64,000 nt of DNA from a virus. The notes below the pieces were generated by a model, which saw only the letters and a program-made list of their open reading frames with translations, did not search any database and was not told where the DNA came from. The number at the start of each line of letters is the position of its first letter. Position 1 is the first letter of the stretch. A program made the translations under genes and the position numbers. The stretch is taken from the IMG/VR virus record IMGVR_UViG_3300042991_001118, positions 1 through 64,000 of that record; one strand, written 5' to 3'. This document shows positions 10,777 through 43,197 of the stretch, one piece after another.

Positions 10777-10911
10777 CTACAAATTTTTAGCCATATCTTG
10801 AATGGATATTTTAGTTGCATTTTTATAGCAGAAAGGGTAAACTACACGAATAGAGATAGCGTATGCCACGATATGAATGCAAGCATTATGCAAGAAAAAC
10901 AGAAAGGCAAA

Positions 10912-11132
10912 ATATGAAAAAATTCTTAACAGTATCTACCTGTGCCGAAATCTTCGAGGCTCCAATCAGCACAATTACAAGGTGGTGCAAAAAAGGGAAT
11001 ATCGCGATGGAATATAGTGATGGGAAGAACTGCTCTTATGTGCCGATTCTTGACCTGATCAATTGGCTCCACTCCACAGATAGACTCCCACGCCCTAAAA
11101 AACAAAAATCTGACAATATCCAAACAGATTAG
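10912..11132 (+). CDS. Excisionase/MerR-like helix-turn-helix DNA-binding protein
   Basis: FLTVSTCAEIF...STITRWCKKG HTH_17-like pattern; probable start MKKFLT after GAAAGG. Confidence 0.65.
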
Positions 11133-11232
11133 CCTAAAATGTAGTATAATTTACCTAGAGACATTTACAAGCAGTTTGCAATAAAAAATCCTCTAAAAAC
11201 CTTATAAATATTTAATTTTTTTACACTTTTTG

Positions 11233-11261
11233 TTGCAAACCGCTTGCAAATGTGGTATAAT
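11233..11261 (+). promoter_or_regulatory. Strong sigma70-type promoter for the early island
   Basis: TTGCAA-17 bp-TATAAT with an extended TGn and an AT-rich upstream element. Confidence 0.8.
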
Positions 11262-11269
11262 ATAGATAG

Positions 11270-12050
11270 TGAAAAATTAAATGAGTTTCACGTCTGGTGA
11301 AGAGCTAGAAAACTTAGCTTGGCAGCCCAGAACCCTTAAAAATGCCCAGAAGAATCCAAGATGGCACAAATAAGTGCAAGGATTAGGGCGGGTGGACGGG
11401 ATGAACGCTAAGAATACTCTAGCGACTCCAACCAGTGCAGAAGTCGGTTGCCCCACTATCCAGAAATGGAAGATGGTGAAAGAAAGACGAAAGTCTTTTA
11501 GAAACCTGAATGACAAGACTTCTAAAAAGGCGAGGCGCAAAGACACACAACGGTGGCTTGTAAGATGTGTGTCCAAAAGAAAAGCCTAAAGCGCAAAACC
11601 CTACATGTGAGTCCCGTAGACAATCAAGGAACTTAGAAAAATCCTCTGGTTGGGTACGAGGATGTCAAGTGAAAAGACTCGAAGACAGAGGTGCTAAGAC
11701 CGAATCTTCTCGAATGAGTCCGCACTGGCCGAACCACGAGGTTCAGGTACAATCTTTCAGTGCGCCGCTTCTTGGTACGCGCAATGCGAAAAAATGGGAA
11801 GACTTCCCAATACCACTAAGCGTAACCCAAGGTCATCTCAGGGAACTAAGCCCGAACGACCTTCCAGAGTACCTGGCGAAAGGGGAGATTGCGAAACACT
11901 CCTAAACGAAAGTTTAGGGCCGAACTCGAAAGAGGGAAGGATACCTGGCGAAGTGTGAAAGACACGAAGTAGCCATGAAGACAACGTAGGGTGTGATCTC
12001 CGAGGGTGGCTTGCCTAAGCCGAATCGGAAGAGCAAAAAAGAAACTCCTT
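11270..12050 (+). ncRNA. Candidate large structured ncRNA (~780 nt)
   Basis: No credible ORF; GAAA-capped hairpins (11483-11498, 11901-11918, 11925-11934); long-range stem 11598-11604/11986-11992; lies between a promoter and a terminator. Confidence 0.65.
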
Positions 12051-12065
12051 TGATTTAAAACTACA

Positions 12066-12118
12066 AAAAGTGGAGTGCTTTTTCAATAACCATACGAAAA
12101 AGCTATACTCCGCTTTTT
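12066..12118 (+). terminator. Terminator-like hairpin
   Basis: aaaagtggagt...actccgctttt stem followed by a T run. Confidence 0.55.
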
Positions 12119-12428
12119 GTATTAAATGGTTAATGTTTCGAGTAAGCAGAAAAAAAAATGCGATTATAAGTCCTGTTTCTAATGGTAGATAACAGGCAGA
12201 GAAGTAATGAATTTTCTGCCGTTGCGAAACAACAAAACAAATATGACAAGAATAGGCTGCGCCCTACTCCTCACGGAGTGTGCTGTGTATGTCTTGGTTC
12301 CCACGCGGTACCGAGACACGTCTGAGTTTACTCAGATGGGTTGGATTCCCCAGGTCATATTTCAGCAACCAATTAACAAATTTTTCTGAGGCATCCCAAT
12401 GCGGAGTAAGTCCTCAAAGGAGATTTTT

Positions 12429-12740
12429 ATGGAACTTGTTGTAATTATTTTTTCTAGTTTATCTTTTCTATTCACAATTTTTGGTTGGATAACTGCTATG
12501 TGGCAGCTAAAAGACCTGCGGAAACAACTGGCAGCCAACAAATATTCCATTTACCTCTTCATTGATGGTAAGTGGATTCTGGCACCACAAGAAGCAATAG
12601 ACGCAGGTCTTGCCCTCGTCGAGGGACGACAGGCGTATGGAGCTATCACAAGCGGATTGTGTGACCACATAGTGGACAGGAAAAAAGAAAAAATTTACAT
12701 GTTCCCTAAAGGAGCTAAGGTAGAGATACCTACCGAATAG
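12429..12740 (+). CDS. Hypothetical membrane-anchored protein
   Basis: AAGGAG RBS, N-terminal TM helix. Confidence 0.7.
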   Translation: MELVVIIFSSLSFLFTIFGWITAMWQLKDLRKQLAANKYSIYLFIDGKWILAPQEAIDAGLALVEGRQAYGAITSGLCDHIVDRKKEKIYMFPKGAKVEIPTE

Positions 12741-12904
12741 CTCCCATCCACTGAACGACAAGCGTTCTATCCTGGTGCAAGTCCAGGCAGTGGATCAATT
12801 AAGGCTTCGCCGTGATGCGCCATGAAGCACACGGCACAGGAAAAAAAGAACAAACAATTTTTGAGGCTTCCAGACAAATGGTATAAGTCCTCAAGGAGGT
12901 CATT

Positions 12905-12967
12905 ATGGGCTTCGTAATTGCTATGGCGGTTTGGGCCGCCATTGGCTATGCCCTCTTTGCGGCATAG
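12905..12967 (+). CDS. 20-aa hydrophobic microprotein MGFVIAMAVWAAIGYALFAA
   Basis: AGGAGG RBS within motif D; manual translation. Confidence 0.55.
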   Translation: MGFVIAMAVWAAIGYALFAA

Positions 12968-12969
12968 CT

Positions 12970-13923
12970 CAAACCCCTGTGACCCTAACACACGTTAGCG
13001 GTCGGCTCAGTTAAAAAACCACACTAAAGGGTACTGGGCGTTAAGTGTGGAACGGACGTGATTATGAGTTCTTCCGGTGGAAGCGATATCATTACGCGTA
13101 AGACAAGGTCTGAAACGTAATGGAGTTAAGTACACCAGAAGAAAAACGAGTAAGAATATCCGAATCCTGAACGTATTGGAAAGAAGACAGCATTTCTCGA
13201 TGTCGATTATAAGACCTGAATCTCACGAGAGAAACAGGCTGAGAAGCAAAGAAAACTGTTGTAAAAATTGGGAAAGAAAAAGCATTAGTAGGCGCGAATA
13301 ATATGGATTAGACGATAAGCCCTATCATTTTGAATTTTGGAACCATGCGGAAAGCCAAGACGTTCCGGAAACCTTTATATAATAAAACGAGAGCAAACCA
13401 GCTAAGGAGGGTTTGCTCCCAACGTGAATTACCCGTTGTTGCCACGCCCTACGTGATTATAATAGTCGCCTCTGTTGAGAAACAATCTCATGCTTATCTC
13501 AGAATAAGACCGAAGAGATATTAGCCTCAACATGCTGCCGCCAAGGCGTGCTGGACCCCATCGCAAAAAGTAAAACAATACTGGCAAGTTAATCCAAGTC
13601 TCCATAGAGAAGTTGGTTTTTTTGCGTGAGAAATGGAAAGCAAAACGAAAGAGACACCCAGCCGTGCGCACACCAAGAAGCGAAGCATGTGTTGCTCCTT
13701 ACTCCCTTGGAGGAGTAAACATTGGAAAATAGATTATCTGTATTCCAGTGGTTCCTTATGTGAACTGGACAATAAATCTGCTGCTCGATCTCGTTCGGAC
13801 AGTCTAAATAATTGTCGACTATAGGCACACTGTGCTTATCTGGGAGCATACCCCAGTTAGACTATCACGTTCTACACCCCTGGTACCGATCCTAATGTGG
13901 GACGGCGGCCAGGGTCTTTTTTT
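12970..13923 (+). ncRNA. Second candidate large structured ncRNA (~950 nt)
   Basis: ORF-poor; multiple hairpins; possible end-to-end pairing 13054-13062/13864-13872; ends in a hairpin plus T7 tract. Confidence 0.45.
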
Positions 13924-13972
13924 ATTCCATTTTTGAGGCAGTCATCGACATAAGTCCTCAAAGGAGTTTTGT

Positions 13973-14212
13973 ATGAAAAAGATAAAAAAATCGTTTATAG
14001 AAATATCTCCCAAACTTTTTGGGACGGAAGAAAAAGTAATTTTTAAAAATGTGGGAAAAAAATCCATCGAAATAGTGGGGATTTCCCCAATAATTCCAAG
14101 AGGGAGGCAGCTACGGAGTATCGAAATCTATTTCGTGGCACAGTTTATTATTCCACGAAAAAAAAACTGGAAAGAAAACGCAACCAGCGTGCTTAAAAAA
14201 TTAGGATGCTGA
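13973..14212 (+). CDS. Hypothetical protein
   Basis: AAGGAG RBS behind motif D. Confidence 0.65.
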   Translation: MKKIKKSFIEISPKLFGTEEKVIFKNVGKKSIEIVGISPIIPRGRQLRSIEIYFVAQFIIPRKKNWKENATSVLKKLGC

Positions 14213-14687
14213 TTCTTCAAGTTGTAAAACCCGATGCCCCACGGAGATGACTTCAATGTAACGGCAATACTAAGAAAAAGAATTCCATGCTGGAAGCCAA
14301 TGTCCGGCGCATGGAACGGAAGGCTGCACCGTGGACATGAAATGAAAGCAGGACGAATAATCCAATGCAATAAAGGCATTTATTGCATTGGATATATGGC
14401 ATGGACGTATGCAGGACATAAATTCAAATTTGACATCTTCACGGGCTGTTAAACTGAATTAGTATCCTCGACGACGTAAAAATAGATTTGGTTAGCTTTA
14501 GCTATATCTAACCATTCCATATAAAACTTCACGATAAATGCCATCGTGAAGACTAAAGCTAAAGGCACAATTTAACCCTCGTTAAACACGCCATTATAAA
14601 GACGTGTCCTGGAGAATAACCAGGATTGTGCAATACAAACCCTGCTAAAGTAGCAGGTACTTATCCCAAAATTTTAAGGAAAAATAA

Positions 14688-14927
14688 ATGGAAAAATTAA
14701 GTTTTCTTACCGAGGTACAAGGAATTTTGAGGTCCAAAGATGTTGGGCACCTATGCAGTCTAGAAAAAAAGTATGACGTACCCAACATAAAGTTGCATCC
14801 TCTAGAAAAAGTTTTGCTGGAAGTATGTTCACACCGCAGGATGCAACTCAAGCGGTCCAAAAATAATACGAGATTCAATGAGCAATATTGGTGGTGGCAA
14901 TACCTCCAGTATTGCAAAGACGAATAA
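14688..14927 (+). CDS. Hypothetical protein
   Basis: AAGGA RBS, 79 aa. Confidence 0.6.
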   Translation: MEKLSFLTEVQGILRSKDVGHLCSLEKKYDVPNIKLHPLEKVLLEVCSHRRMQLKRSKNNTRFNEQYWWWQYLQYCKDE

Positions 14928-14943
14928 CCCATCACGCAAAAAC

Positions 14944-15969
14944 ATGCACCGCAGAGATAACTTCAAAGCGCGTGCTCTATGTATCTAGCCCGTGAAGCTA
15001 AGACAAAAACACCTTAGTCTTCACGGGCTATTTTTTTATCTCTACAAATTTTTTACAGGGCTTCCCACACAGGATATAAGACCCTAAAGGAGTTTTTATG
15101 GTAACGTTTCTACGGGCATTATATAACGCCACACAGTGCACGGGACTGCAAGGTCATTACAACTTAAATAGTTGTATCCTGACACAAGACTCCGTCGCAG
15201 CCAGCGACGGAAAGAAATTGTATGTCTCTCACCCTACCGAATATCCCTGGAAAGAAATTTCTCAAGGAGAGGAAGAAATATTTCTGTTCCCCCTTGGGAA
15301 ACAGAAACAAGACTGGTCCACCCCGATAATCAAAAAAAATCAAAAGGAGCAACCAATACTCCAGGCACTAGGGTGTGACTGGGCAATCCAAACGCCACAA
15401 AACACCACATCTAAAATGTTGGGATTTAAAAAGATGATGTCCGTTTTCCCAACTATCGAAAATCCATACTATATGCCAGTTTTGGCAGCAGGATGGAAAG
15501 AAATAATGAAATGGAAAAAGAAACACGAAATGGGCAGAAAAAAGAAAGATTTCTGTCCCGTGGTGTTTTCTCAAGTGGACGGAGGGCTATACGCCCAGTG
15601 CTCACGAGAGCCAAATCACCATCCATCGGATGGTGAACCAAATTACGTACCAATAGATGAAATCCCCATAATCCATGTGGTGGAACGCTGCCGAACGACC
15701 GTAAAGGCGTTCGCGATAAACATGTGTCTTATTCCGAAGCACATGCCAGCACCACAAGAGTTGTGCGCCGATGCATCGTATGAGAACAGAACATCTGTGC
15801 TTCTGCGATGGGGTAGAGAAAAAATATTTCTGATCGGGCTTCCCCTGATCGAGGAATAAAAAAATGCACCGCAGAGATGACTTCAAAGCGCGTGCTCTAT
15901 GTATCCTAGCCCGTGAAGCAAAGATGAGTCACAACGTGACATGTCTGAAACTTCACGGGCTTTTTTTTT
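14944..15969 (+). repeat. Motif A: hairpin plus intrinsic terminator, 2 copies (14944-15037, 15864-15969)
   Basis: Near-identical atgcaccgcagagat...gcgcgtgc followed by the agcccgtgaag/cttcacgggct stem and a T tract. Confidence 0.8.
15098..15859 (+). CDS. Hypothetical protein, weak resemblance to a beta-clamp-like domain
   Basis: YNLNS...VAASDGKKL resembles Y-x-LNG...VATDGHRL. Confidence 0.5.
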   Translation: MVTFLRALYNATQCTGLQGHYNLNSCILTQDSVAASDGKKLYVSHPTEYPWKEISQGEEEIFLFPLGKQKQDWSTPIIKKNQKEQPILQALGCDWAIQTPQNTTSKMLGFKKMMSVFPTIENPYYMPVLAAGWKEIMKWKKKHEMGRKKKDFCPVVFSQVDGGLYAQCSREPNHHPSDGEPNYVPIDEIPIIHVVERCRTTVKAFAINMCLIPKHMPAPQELCADASYENRTSVLLRWGREKIFLIGLPLIEE

Positions 15970-16023
15970 GTTTCTACATTTTTACAGGGCAGTCTACGGA
16001 CATAAGACCCTAAAGGAGATTTT

Positions 16024-16200
16024 ATGTACAAAGTATTTGCAAGAACATGGTGGAAAAAGAATGAAAGCTGACCAGACGGACTAGATCCGCAGGCCGGAAA
16101 ACCCACCACCATAAAGAAAAACATTCCAAGCGGAGGCGTTCGCAATCGCCAAAGAGTGGAATAAAAAAAATAAACCGCATTGGCTTATCACCGATGCGGT
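16024..16200 (+). pseudogene. Disrupted small phage gene
   Basis: Good RBS; MYKVFARTWWKKNES*PDGLDP (TGA at 16069); plausible continuation AEAFAIAKEWNKKNKP in another frame. Confidence 0.45.
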
Positions 16201-16266
16201 TTTTTATTCCCTTTAACTTTTTTTTGCGTGAGTAGGAAAGCATTCCGAAAACGCAGGAGGAAAAAA

Positions 16267-16938
16267 ATGTTTATACATCTAAGCATGCCCAGTAAGATGC
16301 CTTGCCCAGCTTGGTCGCTTCCGACCAACATGTGCATCTCTGGGCAACGGTTCATTAGGGAAGGTGCTCTTCTCAATAAGCCCTACGTTTGCCGCGTTTG
16401 TTACGCAAACTGTGGGACGAGTTCTTTCCCTGTATCAATCGAACCATTGCAAAAAAACTGGGAGGCATACGCCTCCAACCCACAAAAGTGGGTAAGGGAA
16501 ATATCTACGAAAATATGGGCAGAGTGCAACTGCTTATATTTTCGCTGGTTCCATTGTGGAGACATACAAAGTCCAGATATGCTGGGGCATATCATGGATG
16601 TTGCCGAACGGTGTCCCAGAACGTCATTCTGGATTCCCACAATTGAAAAAGAAATGGTATTGATGGTCTTAAAAGACCGGAAAGTACCAAGCAACCTCAC
16701 AGTCAGAGTCTCTTCCCCAGAAGTTGACTCTATGCCACAGCCGTGGCAAACACCTGGGGTGTGCAACTCCATGGTGTCCTATAAAGAAAAATGGACATGC
16801 CCAGCGCATACAACCGGAAATCAATGCAAAACCTGTCGCGCCTGCTGGGATAGAAAGGTTGAACTTGTGGCGTACCCATTGCACACGGGATGCCATCTCC
16901 AATCCGATACGACAGCGCGGCGTATCGGACTCATCTAA
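16267..16938 (+). CDS. GP88-like Cys-rich phage protein
   Basis: SKMPCPAWSLP, CxxCYA, FRWFHCGD, WIPT, NLTVRVS, CPA, CxxCRACWD motifs; AGGAGG RBS. Confidence 0.75.
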   Translation: MFIHLSMPSKMPCPAWSLPTNMCISGQRFIREGALLNKPYVCRVCYANCGTSSFPVSIEPLQKNWEAYASNPQKWVREISTKIWAECNCLYFRWFHCGDIQSPDMLGHIMDVAERCPRTSFWIPTIEKEMVLMVLKDRKVPSNLTVRVSSPEVDSMPQPWQTPGVCNSMVSYKEKWTCPAHTTGNQCKTCRACWDRKVELVAYPLHTGCHLQSDTTARRIGLI

Positions 16939-22163: not shown

Positions 22164-22213
22164 AAAAAAAGACCCCTAACCGGAAAGAAATTTCCGGTTA
22201 GGGGTCTTTTTTT
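22164..22213. terminator. Bidirectional intrinsic terminator
   Basis: A7 - perfect 16-bp stem gacccctaaccggaaa/tttccggttaggggtc - T7, between convergent genes. Confidence 0.9.
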
Positions 22214-33173: not shown

Positions 33174-34646
33174 TTACAAACAAACCATACCTGCATTTTG
33201 CAACACGAGGCTGCACTCTTTAGATGGGACATAATCTTTTTGCATCGCAAAACCGACCCGCATGCCCATTTCTCCGTATCCTTTGATTACACAATATGTT
33301 CCCTTATATCGAACCACATCTCCTTTTCTCAGTTCGTCGTATCCGCTTCGTATGACTTTCTTTCCAGGCAGCACACGCAAACGTGCCAGAATTTGTTTGC
33401 CTTTTTTAGCGACTAGCTCTGTCAGGCTGTCAGACTTTTGTCCCGTTCTTTTGTTGCGATTTTTAGCCACGATTTTTGTGCCATCTTTATAGTTTCTCTC
33501 CCTTGTGGCATGGATAAGCTGGCGATGGTGCCTTCGGAACTGTTTGTATTCATATACGATAAGGTCGCTAGATTTTATCGAGCCTATTTTATCTTCGTCA
33601 GAAAAGGAGACCAGATATGCGTCTATGCAATGGCTTTTGGGAAGTCCCAGATTTTGCCGTTTTTCTTTGGTCTCGTATCCATAAGTTAGACAAACAGTTG
33701 AAACAATTTGCATCAACCATTCATAAAATAAAGGCATGATTGTGTTTAGAATCGTCGTATGAACATACTTCTTACACATGCCTGCAAATACAGCCTTGAC
33801 CTGGGCATCTACTTTCTCATGGCGATGCACTTTCTCATGGCATTTTGCGCAAAGGGTGATCAGATTTTCCGGATTGTCCCCGCCTTTCTGGCTTGCCCAT
33901 ATTACATGGTGTACGTGCAAATTCCCTTTTGTGTTACCACACAACTGGCACGTATGCTTGTCTCGGCAAAGCACGTATTCCTGGCTGTTGGCGTACCCTT
34001 TTTTTCTGCCGTTTTGGTACTGCACGCCTTGAACGGAGGGATTGTCAAGTTTGTGGATGTCGAATTTGCCATATTCCAGATGCACATGCGCTATAGGCAA
34101 TATTTTAGCTGCTTTGTCACTGAATCTTTTGTGCGTTTCCAACAAATGGCTGGCCGTAGGCGTGAGCCAACCTCTGTTTCGGCGGCGATTATGAAAGCGG
34201 ATCGGCTTAGGTTTTATCCCTTTGCAAAGCAAATTTTCGGCGGTATTCGATATTTTGTATCTCTTTTCACCAAAGTATGTTTGCGCTTTTTTCGCCCTGC
34301 GTTTTCTAACCAAACGACGATGCCTCCTTCTGCTTTGCCTGTGCATCCTGCGTTCGGCCATATTTTCGGACACTTCCTTGCTTCTAGCTTCCACATGTGC
34401 CGCAAATACTACTTCTCCATTCTCTTTTCTCACGACTAGCGCGATATCTTTTCCGCCTGGGTCAATTCCCATAATCAAAGGTTGAGTGTAGGATGTAGTA
34501 TCATATAAAAGTTGTATCGTGAATGGTTTACGACGTATTACTTTTGCAAGGCCGGCTTTTAGCAACTTTTTCACTTTGCCAAATCTTTTCGTCGGCATGA
34601 GTGGCTGGCCATTTTCCGATACGACATAAACGTAATTATTTTCCAT
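33174..34646 (-). CDS. iscB: IscB RNA-guided endonuclease (490 aa)
   Basis: PLMP, RuvC-I GIDPG, Arg-rich bridge helix, RuvC-II E, HNH (HHV...GG...NLITLC..CH), RuvC-III H..DA. Confidence 0.92.
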   Translation of the reverse strand: MENNYVYVVSENGQPLMPTKRFGKVKKLLKAGLAKVIRRKPFTIQLLYDTTSYTQPLIMGIDPGGKDIALVVRKENGEVVFAAHVEARSKEVSENMAERRMHRQSRRRHRRLVRKRRAKKAQTYFGEKRYKISNTAENLLCKGIKPKPIRFHNRRRNRGWLTPTASHLLETHKRFSDKAAKILPIAHVHLEYGKFDIHKLDNPSVQGVQYQNGRKKGYANSQEYVLCRDKHTCQLCGNTKGNLHVHHVIWASQKGGDNPENLITLCAKCHEKVHRHEKVDAQVKAVFAGMCKKYVHTTILNTIMPLFYEWLMQIVSTVCLTYGYETKEKRQNLGLPKSHCIDAYLVSFSDEDKIGSIKSSDLIVYEYKQFRRHHRQLIHATRERNYKDGTKIVAKNRNKRTGQKSDSLTELVAKKGKQILARLRVLPGKKVIRSGYDELRKGDVVRYKGTYCVIKGYGEMGMRVGFAMQKDYVPSKECSLVLQNAGMVCL

Positions 34647-34659
34647 ATTTTGCTCATTT

Positions 34660-34830
34660 ATAAAAAATTCCGAAGAATAATTCCACACGAAGGTGGTCGG
34701 TCTCCCTGAACTGGGTGCAGGATTGGCATAGAGCCTGGGATTGGGAAGTTCATCCCAGGGTACTACCTGCATCCGTGTGTCACGTCCCTACTCAACTAGC
34801 AAGCAGGGTAACCCTGATAACTACAGCGTT
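34660..34830 (-). ncRNA. omegaRNA scaffold with putative 5' guide
   Basis: tagttgagtag...taccctgggatg...cccaatcccaggctct...gggagac upstream of iscB, resembling omegaRNA scaffolds; boundaries approximate. Confidence 0.65.
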
Positions 34831-36098: not shown

Positions 36099-36359
36099 TC
36101 GATAAAAGACGAGGGGTTTGCAGTCTGGGATAATTGAATTCCAAAATTCAATTTCAAAAATCAGAAAAAAGTTCTGGGGTGTAGCGACCCCCTCCACATC
36201 TTTTCCATCCGCCGTAAACCCTTCGGACACCCCTCTAAGCCAACCCCTGCCTAAGCCCCTGAGTGCCGCAAAGAGGGGACAAAAAAGACCCAACAAGACC
36301 AAAAGGAGACAAGGGGACACCTTTCACCACACTCGTACACTTCAATAGAAGCCAGTGGC

Positions 36360-38965
<2,606 letters not shown>

Positions 38966-39052
38966 AGATGTGCTAGGATATGGTGATTCGAGGTGCATGT
39001 GGATTAGAACCATTGGGGTTATTGGGATACAGGGGTATGTGGTTAGAATTCA

Positions 39053-41037: not shown

Positions 41038-43197
41038 TTAGGTTGTTCCGGGATTCCCGGTATCCAGAATTTCGATTTCCTTTCCATCGATGACCCAGAA
41101 TGCCATGTCCAGATCAACTAACTCCTGCATTTTCTCTCGCGCTTTCTTAGCGGATCCGCAGCCTCGTATCCTCGCGACGTATAGTGTCCTTGGTTTAATC
41201 CTAGAGAGTCCTTTTTTCTTTGCGAAGTCTATGATTGCGTTCTGTTCGACTTCCTCCGGGCTTTTCTTTGAAAGTCCTCTAGCCTTTTCATTGTGGCTTT
41301 CAAAGTACTGGGAAAATTCAATAGCCTTCTGGATGATTTGAACGTCGCATATCTTTGCGTCGTGCAGCAGGCAAAGGCATAGTGCAATGCGAAGGCAATG
41401 GGCCGGCATCTTTGACCAGAAGTCGCCTTCTTTTCCGTTGCACGCGTCGTAGTACTGTCCGAACACGGCCTCGGCTTCATCCGACATGATGATTCTTGGC
41501 GATTCCGTTTTGCAACATTCGTAGATGCTTCGGAGTTTGTCCTTGGCTTTTTCTCGGATCTCCGAATCAATTTTTTCGGAGTCCCATTTTCTTTGCATTG
41601 CTTCTGGATAGCAGCATACCAGACGGTCAAAGAATCCGTCATTGGCGTTCCCAGATAGCAGGGGAAGTTTGTCTGGAACGATTCCTCCGAGGATGGATAG
41701 GTGTGGGCTTCTAATAAAGATTGCGGGCTTTCCCTTCCTATCGATTTTCGCGAAGGTTCCAGACCAGGCAGACAAGTAGAATTCCTTGTCCGCACCTTTA
41801 CCTGCCCTGTACTGGTCCATGGAGTTTATCCAGGACGACAATTCATCCCGCATTAACAGGAGAGATGGGTTCCCATTAAGAATAGGACCCAAACTTTCCG
41901 TCGTCGCGTCCGTCGTGAGGAGGGTTTTGTCGCAAATTTCTTTAGGCGGTTCAGGTCGCTCTGTATCCGGGGATCCTTTTTTCGCGTTTTTCTTCCACTC
42001 TGCCAGGGCTTCCCGATACTCTTCCTTTTCCACCTCGAATTCATTCCGATTCGCCTCGTTTTCACCACGGAGTTCCTCCTCGATTTCAAAGACGACACCT
42101 AGCGTCTTTTCCATCGCCGGGGTTTTCCCGCTTCCTGGCGATCCGATTAACGCTGAGTACATTATCGCCTTGGTTGACCAGTCCTTGGATGGGATCGTTA
42201 TCGTAGCGTTCCCTGAGAGCAGGGAAACTGCGGACAATAAGGAAACCCCTGGGTAATCGATATTCGTCGAGAGATTTCCAGAGATGTTTTTCACGTATTT
42301 CTGGAACAGTTCCGGCAGTACATGTGTCGGAAATGGCTTTACCTTCACGTCCTCTCCTATGGACGCTTCTTTCCTGACCTCTTCCAGTATTTTCCCAAAC
42401 CTATCGCAGAATGTATCAGGACTTTGCACGTAAAAATCAGACGCGTCCTTCACAGGGAGTGTGACGACGTGCAGATTCCTATGCCATCCCAAAACCTTTA
42501 GGTGTTTCTTTAGACCAGATTCCATGGTATCCCCACCCTGGTCTGGGTCCTTCAAGAGGTATATCGTCTTTGCATGTTCCACCTGTGGGTAGTTCAATTT
42601 CGCGAACATCGAAGCCCCTGGTATCCCTAAAGCTGGGTATCCATTCAACCAGAGCGTCCAGCAGTTCGATTCGCCCTCACATATAATCAGTTCCGTGGCG
42701 CATTTATTCATCTCTAGCCATTGCCCATATACTCCGATGGGTAGGTCTCTTGTTCTTCCAGTCGTATCCCATCGCGAACCACTAGAACTTATACCTTTCC
42801 GGATTCTGTTCCGGAGTGCGTTTTTTCCATTCCCATCCAGATACGGGATGCATATACCATCTTCTTCGTTATAAACTCCCAACCCCTGGAGAAATTTCAA
42901 TGGAATGAATTTTTTCTTTGCCAGTTCTTCTGCGGTCGGGACGCATTTTACTTCCGAGTAAGTTTTTGTTTGTGTCGTGCTCGTCGGTCTCATATCTCCC
43001 CCGGTCAACCCCATAGACTTCACAATATCTTCAAAACTGCAACCTGCTTTGCAATTGAGCAGGATTTTACTTTCTTTCCCTTCCCCAATTACCAGGGAGT
43101 TATGCTTATCATCATGGCATGGGCATTTGGACGTGTACCCACCCGTCGTTAATCTTCGGACTCCATTTAATTTTTTCAGAACTTCTGTGATTTCCAT
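41038..43197 (-). CDS. Primase-helicase (Zn finger + TOPRIM + DUF3987/YfjI-like P-loop domain)
   Basis: CPCHDD..SL...C.AGC; CEGE; DPD.GG; GSPGSGKT; DEL; DGFFDR. Confidence 0.85.
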   Translation of the reverse strand: MEITEVLKKLNGVRRLTTGGYTSKCPCHDDKHNSLVIGEGKESKILLNCKAGCSFEDIVKSMGLTGGDMRPTSTTQTKTYSEVKCVPTAEELAKKKFIPLKFLQGLGVYNEEDGICIPYLDGNGKNALRNRIRKGISSSGSRWDTTGRTRDLPIGVYGQWLEMNKCATELIICEGESNCWTLWLNGYPALGIPGASMFAKLNYPQVEHAKTIYLLKDPDQGGDTMESGLKKHLKVLGWHRNLHVVTLPVKDASDFYVQSPDTFCDRFGKILEEVRKEASIGEDVKVKPFPTHVLPELFQKYVKNISGNLSTNIDYPGVSLLSAVSLLSGNATITIPSKDWSTKAIMYSALIGSPGSGKTPAMEKTLGVVFEIEEELRGENEANRNEFEVEKEEYREALAEWKKNAKKGSPDTERPEPPKEICDKTLLTTDATTESLGPILNGNPSLLLMRDELSSWINSMDQYRAGKGADKEFYLSAWSGTFAKIDRKGKPAIFIRSPHLSILGGIVPDKLPLLSGNANDGFFDRLVCCYPEAMQRKWDSEKIDSEIREKAKDKLRSIYECCKTESPRIIMSDEAEAVFGQYYDACNGKEGDFWSKMPAHCLRIALCLCLLHDAKICDVQIIQKAIEFSQYFESHNEKARGLSKKSPEEVEQNAIIDFAKKKGLSRIKPRTLYVARIRGCGSAKKAREKMQELVDLDMAFWVIDGKEIEILDTGNPGTT

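What the first reader, a model, noticed from the sequence alone, without database searches (positions are those of the whole stretch)
11270..12050. Large ornate ncRNA candidate directly behind the strongest promoter
Seen: ~780 nt with no RBS-supported ORF, several GAAA-capped hairpins, stems such as gacacaca/tgtgtgtc and tgggaag/cttccca, and a long-range helix ACCCTAC/GTAGGGT closing ~380 nt. Known: phages carry GOLLD- and ROOL-class RNAs of this size. I cannot assign it to a family; it may be new, or a processive antiterminator for the island.
Basis: partly seen in the sequence, partly recalled or inferred. Interest (0 to 1): 0.8.

Follow-up and report, generated by a model that had tools for sequence, protein, structure and literature searches.

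The report
Orphan large structured early phage RNA
An uncultured cave-metagenome phage carries, behind a near-consensus promoter, a gene-free stretch of about 860 bases that looks like a self-contained, intricately folded RNA gene. It has no relative in any database searched, so its reality rests on this one sequence and its function is unknown.

Summary
Window 11270-12060 has stops of all three kinds in all six frames, no ribosome-binding-site-supported ORF and no protein homologue. It is richer in G+C than the contig (0.47 vs 0.40) and folds better than shuffles (z -4.4 to -5.2).

New here: the unit is bounded. Its parts are a sigma-70 promoter (11233-11261, predicted start ~11268), a 15-18 bp helix joining the first bases (11268-11289) to 12041-12062, five internal domains, and directly after them a long-stem intrinsic terminator (12063-12125). 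The best reading is a discrete ~860-nt early non-coding RNA.

It matches no Rfam 15 family, GOLLD and ROOL included. No homologue turned up in phage, plasmid, IMG/VR, JGI-metagenome or species-genome collections, so covariation could not be tested and no RNA data exist.

Weak points:
- GAAA hairpins are only mildly enriched.
- The 7-bp long-range helix is chance-level on its own.
- One coding window folds equally well.
- The promoter is not the strongest on the contig.

The processive-antiterminator idea has no support: there is no ConAn1 or NusG-like gene, and the RNA is followed at once by a long-stem terminator.

The scan has noted similar-looking large early phage RNAs in other genomes, but none is related in sequence to this one.

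The parts
11161..11253 (.). Inverted repeat with 27-nt arms (11161-11187 and 11227-11253, 89% complementary, 39 nt apart). The right arm covers the -35 box and spacer of the promoter. Candidate operator pair.
   Evidence: I1. The gene just upstream (10914-11132) encodes a small MerR/Xis-like winged-helix protein: HTH_17 below threshold at E 0.027, low-confidence model nearest to BldC/MerR folds.
11233..11261 (+). Sigma-70-type promoter TTGCAA-17-TATAAT with an extended TG. The start is predicted at about A11268/G11269.
   Evidence: The start site is inferred from the spacing to the -10 box and was not measured.
11268..12125 (+). Whole proposed RNA, about 860 nt: 5' end, closing helix, five domains, terminator.
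11268..11289 (+). 5' strand of closing helix P1. It pairs with 12041-12062: 8 + 7 bp around one U.C mismatch, plus 3 outer bp that begin at the predicted first base.
   Evidence: Pair probabilities are 0.84-0.99. The duplex is shown. A 15-bp end pairing is reached by 4 of 7688 genome window pairs at the same spacing and by 1 of 3000 shuffles.
11332..11393 (+). Domain I: extended hairpin of four stacked helices.
   Evidence: P 0.74-0.97
11439..11523 (+). Domain II: a 7-bp stem enclosing two GAAA-capped hairpins (loops at 11463 and 11489).
11528..11587 (+). Domain III: AGGC/GCCU plus the 8-bp GACACACA/UGUGUGUC hairpin with a 16-nt loop.
   Evidence: P 0.83-0.97
11599..11991 (+). Domain IV: a ~390-nt multi-branched domain closed by CCCUAC/GUAGGG. 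It holds two GGN..CUAAG.NCC hairpins (11690-11701, 11841-11853), two GAAA hairpins (loops at 11908 and 11928) and an 11-nt word, UACCUGGCGAA, present twice (starting near 11869 and 11941).
   Evidence: (z -3.46)
12000..12028 (+). Domain V: short hairpin (CCGA/UCGG and UGGCUU/AAGCCG).
12041..12062 (+). 3' strand of closing helix P1. It abuts the terminator hairpin with no gap.
12063..12125 (+). Intrinsic-terminator-like hairpin: a 15-bp G+C-containing stem with a 3-nt bulge, extended to 22 bp by A-tract/U-tract pairing, followed by UUUUUGUAUU.
   Evidence: -30.1 kcal/mol, z -5.16; P >=0.96. The consensus scan missed it because its loop is 11 nt.

Best explanation
Window ~11268-12125 (+) is a self-contained gene for a large, highly structured non-coding RNA of about 860 nt, in an uncultured contractile-tailed phage.

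Inferred course of events: host sigma-70/sigma-A RNA polymerase starts at the near-consensus promoter soon after infection. The promoter sits inside an operator-like inverted repeat beside a small MerR/Xis-like winged-helix gene. The transcript folds into five domains, and its first bases pair with the bases just before the terminator (helix P1). Most transcripts stop at the long-stem intrinsic terminator that directly abuts P1.

The product would have both ends buried in helices, as in stable RNAs, and would act in trans as a folded particle, for example a scaffold or decoy for a protein, or an RNA-only assembly as in GOLLD and ROOL. Read-through of the terminator may also feed the downstream early genes.

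Shown from the sequence: the non-coding status, the promoter and terminator motifs, the closing helix and the above-chance folding. Inferred: transcription, the exact ends, stability and any trans function.
For: - Not coding: stops of all three kinds in all six frames, no ribosome-binding-site-supported ORF, no Pfam hit, and no protein relative among 5.8e9 sequences.
- Composition: G+C 0.470 against 0.402 for the contig, which is the top 1.65% of windows. A is 0.35 and T 0.18.
- Folding: z -4.43 and -5.16. 200-nt windows from 11100 to 12200 mostly score z about -2 to -5.6 (one is near 0), against +1.5 to -1.2 in the coding DNA just upstream. The ensemble is better defined than all 39 shuffles.
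- Boundaries: promoter at 11233-11261. P1 joins 11268-11289 to 12041-12062 with P 0.84-0.99. That pairing is matched by 4/7688 genomic window pairs and 1/3000 shuffles.
- Terminator at 12063-12125 directly after P1.
- Strand: GNRA hairpins number 4 on + against 1 on -. The promoter and terminator are both on +.
- Precedent for the kind: GOLLD and ROOL are phage or prophage RNAs of 600 to over 800 nt (PMC12286853). Staphylococcus phage K makes abundant long ncRNAs, one of them reported to have its own early promoter (PMC9241854).
Against: - There is no homologue, so no covariation and no evidence of conservation.
- There are no expression data.
- The fold z-score is not unique: one coding window reaches z -4.86 and the minus strand folds as well.
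- GNRA enrichment is weak.
- P1 was found after folding, so its significance is partly post hoc.
- No good sigma-70 promoter lies between the terminator and the next gene at 12429. The stretch may therefore double as, or simply be, the leader of the early operon.
- No RNA-binding partner protein is recognisable in the island.
Confidence: 0.55

Rival explanations
1. The stretch is a cis-acting leader of the early island. It is the 5' untranslated region of one long early transcript (11268 to ~22200) and controls downstream expression by attenuation at the 12063-12125 terminator, or by making RNA polymerase terminator-resistant (put, EAR or conAn2-like processive antitermination).
For: - It has the only good plus-strand sigma-70 promoter for the 11-22 kb block; promoter-like sites there number 13, fewer than in shuffles (mean 19.5).
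- Several terminator-like hairpins lie inside the block, and it ends in a 20-bp perfect-stem terminator at 22165-22212. That is the kind that ends antiterminated operons (PMC10325885).
- conAn2 regions are 260-600 bp, and a 456-nt structured leader precedes the pLS20 conjugation operon (PMC8191782 and PMC13401043).
- The next 300 nt (12127-12415) are also structured leader-like RNA.
Against: - The contig has no ConAn1 (PF17362) or NusG/LoaP-like gene, although it is only 61% complete.
- No antiterminator RNA family matched in Rfam.
- The first terminator met is itself long-stemmed (15-22 bp), the class that resists conAn antitermination.
- P1 and the terminator do not overlap, so no alternative antiterminator pairing is evident.
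- At 860 nt it is far larger than put or EAR (the size comparison with those two is from my own knowledge).
Confidence: 0.25
2. The stretch is a protein sponge or decoy. The RNA would display repeated CUAAG/UAAGNCC loop motifs that also sit beside the Shine-Dalgarno sequences of the island's genes, and would titrate the factor that binds them, in the manner of CsrB.
For: - CTAAG occurs 5 times against 1.15 expected (12/2000 shuffles reach it). CGAA occurs 15 times against 6.4, and AAGAC 9 times against 2.2.
- TAAGNCC occurs 32 times on the + strand of the 116-kb contig. Thirteen of these lie in 11.7-16.4 kb: two in small GGN..CUAAG.NCC hairpins of the RNA and five directly before AAAGGAG-ATG.
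Against: - The motif counts are only marginal after correction for the many words tested.
- Only two of the five CUAAG sites share a common hairpin context.
- No candidate binding protein was identified.
- It is a sub-case of the best explanation, not an independent one.
Confidence: 0.1
3. There is no functional RNA. The stretch is a decayed gene or spacer, or a DNA-level element such as an origin or packaging site, that happens to lie between a promoter and a terminator.
For: - It is an orphan sequence with no sign of conservation.
- Its purine-rich composition resembles the sense strand of neighbouring genes.
- A weak 3-periodic Markov model gives the 112-aa frame scores like those of real small genes.
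- A coding window can fold as well.
Against: - Every frame is broken by all three stop codons, and no protein relative exists.
- There are no iterons or direct repeats.
- The 5'-3' closing helix is placed exactly between the predicted start and the terminator.
- The ensemble is well defined.
- Phage genomes rarely keep 0.8 kb of junk (general knowledge).
Confidence: 0.1

Closest known systems
GOLLD (Rfam RF02032) and ROOL (RF03087), the large 'ornate' RNAs of phages and prophages
   Same: - Phage-encoded.
- Comparable size: ROOL's Rfam model has 574 positions, and many GOLLD members exceed 800 nt.
- Multi-domain folds rich in A and in GNRA-type loops.
- No ORF and function unknown (PMC12286853).
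   Different: - No covariance-model match even at E <= 10.
- No tRNA genes in the 64-kb window, whereas GOLLD and ROOL often sit by tRNA islands.
- Sits at the head of an early block behind a sigma-70 promoter.
- Oligomerisation and pseudoknots were not testable.
lnc001 / lnc002 of Staphylococcus phage K (Kayvirus; PMC9241854)
   Same: - Long (635 and 1154 nt), abundant, uncharacterised ncRNAs of a large contractile-tailed phage with a Gram-positive host; one is reported to have its own early promoter.
- Also absent from Rfam: only the neighbouring tRNAs matched.
   Different: - No sequence similarity.
- The phage K RNAs lie next to tRNA genes.
- The capsid protein of this phage is only ~23-25% identical to those of the nearest cultured phages, which infect Listeria and Bacillus.
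conAn2 RNA / pLS20 conjugation-operon leader (PMC8191782, PMC13401043), and the put and EAR antiterminator RNAs
   Same: - A structured non-coding RNA of hundreds of nt at the start of a long operon.
- The operon holds internal terminators and ends in a long-stem terminator.
   Different: - No ConAn1 protein.
- The RNA lies directly behind the promoter, not downstream of a conAn1 gene.
- It is followed at once by a long-stem terminator.
- It is larger than all of these.
End-paired stable RNAs (6S RNA, RNase P RNA; rRNA precursors with 5'/3' processing stems)
   Same: The 5' and 3' ends pair into one closing helix that encloses the whole fold. This comparison rests on my own knowledge.
   Different: No Rfam match to any of them, and no evidence of processing.

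Membership tests
GOLLD (RF02032) | Match to the family covariance model (gathering score 150 bits) | tested here: not met
   No match at gathering on the whole window. None at E <= 10 with lax filters on 11000-12500. None at E <= 10 on the 116-kb contig, with 19 candidates scored.
GOLLD / ROOL | Frequent location beside tRNA genes or tRNA islands in phages and prophages | tested here: not met
   ARAGORN finds no tRNA gene in the 64-kb window. This context is typical of the families but not obligatory (PMC12286853).
ROOL (RF03087) | Match to the family covariance model (gathering score 99.1 bits) | tested here: not met
   In one search the control genomes also gave nothing, so that call alone is weak; the cmscan calls stand on their own.
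GOLLD / ROOL | RNA-only homo-oligomeric nanocage held by kissing loops and A-minor contacts | not testable with these tools
   I saw no self-complementary hairpin loop among the high-probability hairpins. That is not evidence against oligomerisation.
conAn bipartite antitermination system | ConAn1 protein (Pfam pXO2-34, PF17362) encoded at the start of the operon next to the RNA | tested here: not met
   No match at E <= 1 in six frames of the contig. The adjacent 72-aa protein matches only HTH_17, below threshold.
Processive antiterminator RNAs (put, EAR, conAn2) | Read-through of downstream terminators that depends on the RNA in cis | not testable with these tools
   Context only: internal terminators, a single promoter and a long-stem final terminator. 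No Rfam family matched.
Any Rfam 15 family (OLE, raiA, HEARO, 6S, RNase P, tmRNA, group I/II introns, riboswitches and others) | Covariance-model match | tested here: not met
   Zero matches at gathering in 64 kb. At E <= 10 the only hits were chance-level plant and animal miRNA models on the AT-rich promoter palindrome.
Protein-coding gene (standard or recoded) | An open frame with a start signal, or homologues that conserve a frame | tested here: not met

The most novel reading that the evidence does not exclude
This would be the founding member of an undescribed class of ~0.86-kb 'ornate' phage RNA. It would be made immediately after infection and closed by a 5'-3' helix next to a long-stem terminator. 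It opens an early region that is about 80% non-coding over 3.8 kb (11268-15098), with a second ~690-nt closed RNA domain at 13255-13942 and recurring UAAGNCC hairpins at ribosome-binding sites. On this reading the phage's takeover programme is driven largely by structured RNA, with this RNA as a trans-acting particle or decoy.
Probability: 0.4. Interest if true: 0.7.

Novelty: new variant of a known kind. Interest (0 to 1): 0.5.

Why it matters
Large structured RNAs of phages (GOLLD, ROOL, the phage K lncRNAs) are few, and their functions are unknown. Another class, made at the very start of infection and with clean promoter, closing-helix and terminator boundaries, would be a compact and easily synthesised object for structure work such as SHAPE and cryo-EM. 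It could also be used to ask what such RNAs do in host takeover.

The early region also gives the RNA an unusual setting. Most of its first 3.8 kb is folded non-coding RNA, and that may point to RNA-based control of early phage genes. At present the RNA is a single orphan sequence, so its value is that of a well-bounded lead and not a demonstrated RNA class.

Tried and rejected
- Stop-codon recoding: rejected. All three stops occur in all frames.
- Rfam: nothing credible. One search used RF01998, recalled from memory as GOLLD. In this library that accession is group-II-D1D4-1; GOLLD is RF02032.
- Nucleotide homologues: none by blastn against phages and plasmids.
- IMG/VR pattern scans built on internal words gave only collagen-like or other repeats and unrelated DNA, with no blastn similarity.
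- Pseudo-ORF trick: the spurious ORFs 11567-11905 (+) and 11277-11576 (-) were used as degenerate multi-pattern probes.
  - In IMG/VR: nothing.
  - In JGI metagenomes: one hit, L037, which is a G-rich kinase gene and spurious.
  - In species genomes: nothing.
- An IMG/VR scan for the hairpin motif that sits beside the ribosome-binding sites of the island's genes gave only single chance-like hits.
- Flanking small proteins and the primase gave no close relatives in IMG/VR. The five distant primase-bearing contigs hold nothing like the RNA.
- Cultured relatives: capsid and portal proteins are at most 25% identical to anything.
- Paralogues or antisense targets within the contig: none significant.
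- Sequencing runs: no RNA holder was listed. Two older soil and biofilm runs each hold a single low-depth contig identical to 11749-11990 or 11798-11990. The two runs share other contigs, probably sample the same phage population, and give no variation.
- A 3-periodic Markov coding score proved too weak to separate genes from non-genes.
- One script was killed and was redone.
- The structure model of the neighbouring winged-helix protein has low confidence (pLDDT 61). Its fold matches are weak, with the best E at 0.012.

Full report
**Source and setting.** The window is the first 64 kb of a 116-kb linear IMG/VR virus record with estimated completeness 61%. The only run holding the whole stretch is a cave metagenome that may be its source. 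PHROG matches to portal, terminase, capsid, tail sheath and tape-measure proteins show a contractile-tailed phage. The best cultured matches are only 22-25% identical in capsid or portal protein, so the phage has no close known relative. Genes on either side of the finding run on the minus strand. A plus-strand block from about 10.9 to 22.2 kb holds small genes plus GP88-like, ArdC-like and RadC-like genes, which is an early or anti-defence type of island.

**Check of the observation.**
- The stretch 11270-12060 contains TAA, TAG and TGA in every one of the six frames, so neither the standard code nor any stop reassignment opens it.
- A scan for start codons preceded by a Shine-Dalgarno-like word finds nothing credible inside it. 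The next gene with AAAGGAG-ATG starts at 12429.
- The longest ORF (112 aa, GTG, 11567-11905) has no Pfam match. Among 5.8 billion proteins it matches only the contig's own call.
- G+C is 0.470 against 0.402 for the contig, in the top 1.65% of windows, with A 0.35 and T 0.18.
- The minimum free energy is -246.4 kcal/mol, with z -4.43 and -5.16 in two shuffle sets.
- In 200-nt windows, z is mostly -2 to -5.6 from 11100 to 12200 (near 0 in one window) and +1.5 to -1.2 in the coding DNA upstream.
- The ensemble is better defined than every one of 39 shuffles. Diversity is 111 against 181 +/- 36, and 226 bases have a partner at P >= 0.9 against 112 +/- 54.

**Weak points of the observation.**
- Strict GNRA hairpins are only mildly enriched: 3 with >= 4 bp against 0.65 expected, reached by 31/1000 shuffles.
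- By my own estimate, the 7-bp ACCCUAC/GUAGGGU helix would arise by chance many times in 800 nt.
- The complementary strand folds as well.
- One of ten coding control windows, in the primase gene, reaches z -4.86.
- Three promoters elsewhere match the consensus 12/12, so this is not the strongest promoter on the contig. It is the only good plus-strand promoter of the island.

**Anatomy found here.**
- The promoter TTGCAA-17-TG-n-TATAAT lies at 11233-11261 and predicts a start at about 11268.
- It lies in the right arm of a 27-nt inverted repeat, 11161-11187 and 11227-11253.
- The gene just upstream (10914-11132) encodes a 72-aa protein with a near-full-length but sub-threshold HTH_17 match. 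Its low-confidence model has beta-alpha-alpha-beta-alpha topology and is nearest to BldC and MerR-type winged helices. It is a plausible regulator of this promoter; that link is inferred.
- A partition-function fold of 11268-12130 pairs 11274-11289 with 12041-12056 (8 + 7 bp around one U.C mismatch, P 0.84-0.99). Three more outer pairs join 11268-11270 to 12060-12062.
- The predicted first base of the transcript is therefore the first base of a closing helix (P1). The other strand of P1 ends exactly where the next hairpin begins.
- A 15-bp pairing of this quality between two 30-nt windows at this spacing occurs in 4 of 7688 window pairs across the contig and in 1 of 3000 shuffles of the two ends. 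By duplex energy alone it is less exceptional, because it is AU-rich: 550 of 15376 window pairs reach it.
- Inside P1 lie five domains with high-probability helices: 11332-11393, 11439-11523, 11528-11587, 11599-11991 and 12000-12028.
- Directly after P1 comes a hairpin at 12063-12120. It has a 15-bp stem with a 3-nt bulge, extended to 22 bp by A-tract/U-tract pairing, followed by UUUUUGUAUU (-30.1 kcal/mol, z -5.16). This is a canonical intrinsic terminator with an unusually long stem.
- The unit is therefore promoter, closed ~790-nt fold, then terminator: about 860 nt in all.

**Search for relatives.** None was found. The searches were:
- blastn against GenBank phages and PLSDB plasmids;
- three IMG/VR pattern scans;
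- degenerate multi-pattern scans of IMG/VR, JGI metagenomes and 185,579 species genomes, using the two spurious ORFs as probes;
- a search of five distantly related contigs;
- the scan's own index of earlier findings.

The single metagenome hit is a G-rich kinase gene. Covariation, the decisive test, is therefore not available.

**Comparison with known systems.**
- No Rfam 15 family matches. GOLLD (RF02032) and ROOL (RF03087) were also tested directly on the whole contig at E <= 10, with no result.
- Unlike those RNAs, which often lie by tRNA islands (PMC12286853), this one has no tRNA gene within 64 kb.
- Phage K's abundant lncRNAs, one reported to have its own early promoter (PMC9241854), are the nearest analogue in kind. 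They are also absent from Rfam, but they share no sequence with this RNA and sit beside tRNAs.
- For the processive-antiterminator idea I tested the protein partners: no ConAn1 (PF17362) and no NusG-like domain in the contig.
- The island does look like an operon that needs read-through. It has one promoter, several internal terminator-like hairpins and a 20-bp-stem final terminator. In the conAn system, stems longer than 14 bp resist antitermination (PMC10325885).
- By the same rule, the 15-22 bp terminator that follows this RNA should stop even modified polymerase. P1 does not compete with it. Both points favour a stand-alone RNA over a cis antiterminator.
- Against a purely stand-alone reading, no convincing promoter lies between 12125 and the gene at 12429. 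Some read-through, or a phage-specific promoter, must be assumed.

**Possible function.** Word statistics give a weak lead. CGAA (15 against 6.4), AAGAC (9 against 2.2) and CTAAG (5 against 1.15) are enriched. TAAGNCC occurs 13 times in 11.7-16.4 kb, out of 32 on the plus strand of the contig. Two of these lie in small hairpins of this RNA, and five lie immediately before AAAGGAG-ATG of island genes. This allows a sponge or decoy model, but the numbers are marginal and no binding protein is recognisable.

**Verdict.** The main rival is a cis-acting leader of the early island (about 0.25). It is not a member of GOLLD, ROOL or any other Rfam family. Because it is an orphan without covariation or expression data, it remains a lead. 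The scan's earlier notes describe similar-looking large early RNAs in other phages. They are unchecked, and the look-up by this stretch's own sequence found no look-alike outside this genome.

Noticed in passing
window 13255-13942 (within 12970-13950): A second large closed RNA-like domain. 13255-13282 pairs with 13916-13942 (23 bp in four blocks, P 0.73-0.93) and encloses ~630 nt with many hairpins. It overlaps a terminator hairpin (13878-13914) and its U-run. No Rfam match.
   Followed up: partly
window 11268-15098: Only three ribosome-binding-site-supported genes (12429-12740, 13973-14212, 14688-14927; 103, 79 and 79 aa) lie in 3.8 kb. About 80% of the start of this early block is therefore non-coding, and much of it folds better than shuffles.
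   Followed up: partly
window 11695-16377 and contig-wide: The word TAAGNCC occurs 32 times on the plus strand of the 116-kb contig, and 13 of these lie in 11.7-16.4 kb. Five sit in a GAGGC/AGGGC...TAAG(T/A)CC(TC/CT) hairpin directly before an AAAGGAG or AAGGAGG ribosome-binding site and its ATG (12407, 12884, 13951, 15077, 16003).
   Followed up: partly
window 12161-12210 and 13204-13250: A repeated element, CGATTATAAG-N-CCTG...CAGGC-(A/T)-GAGAAG, with different inner stems (CCTGTT/AACAGG against CCTG/CAGG). One copy lies after the terminator of this RNA and one lies inside the second non-coding region (family D2).
   Followed up: no
window 12905-12967: A 20-codon hydrophobic ORF (MGFVIAMAVWAAIGYALFAA) with a good Shine-Dalgarno sequence. 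The same bases form two strong hairpins (12924-12941 and 12945-12968, P >= 0.9), so it is unclear whether it is a gene.
   Followed up: no
window 11749-11990: A soil run of 2012 and a biofilm run of 2014 each hold one low-depth contig (242 and 193 nt) that is 100% identical to this part of the RNA and ends at the same base, 11990. They hold nothing else of 10800-14000. The two runs share other contigs, so this is probably one phage population sampled thinly.
   Followed up: partly
window 41200-41990 (minus strand, inside the primase-helicase gene 41038-43197): This is the most G+C-rich part of the contig (0.48-0.51). As sense-strand RNA it folds with z -4.86, as strongly as the candidate ncRNA. 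This is unexplained.
   Followed up: no
window 36100-38980: About 2.9 kb with no ORF of 90 aa or more on either strand. No tRNA and no Rfam match.
   Followed up: no
window 33174-34772 (minus strand): A 532-aa HNH-endonuclease-family protein. No HEARO/omega-RNA match reached the gathering score in the window.
   Followed up: no
Rfam accession used in earlier notes of this scan: Several earlier follow-up notes cite 'GOLLD (RF01998)'. In the Rfam 15 copy used here RF01998 is group-II-D1D4-1, and GOLLD is RF02032.
   Followed up: yes
L041 and L042 (Staphylococcus phage K, NC_005880.2: 13595-14229 and 37679-38832): The two published phage K lncRNA regions match no Rfam family at gathering; only the adjacent tRNAs match.
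   Followed up: partly
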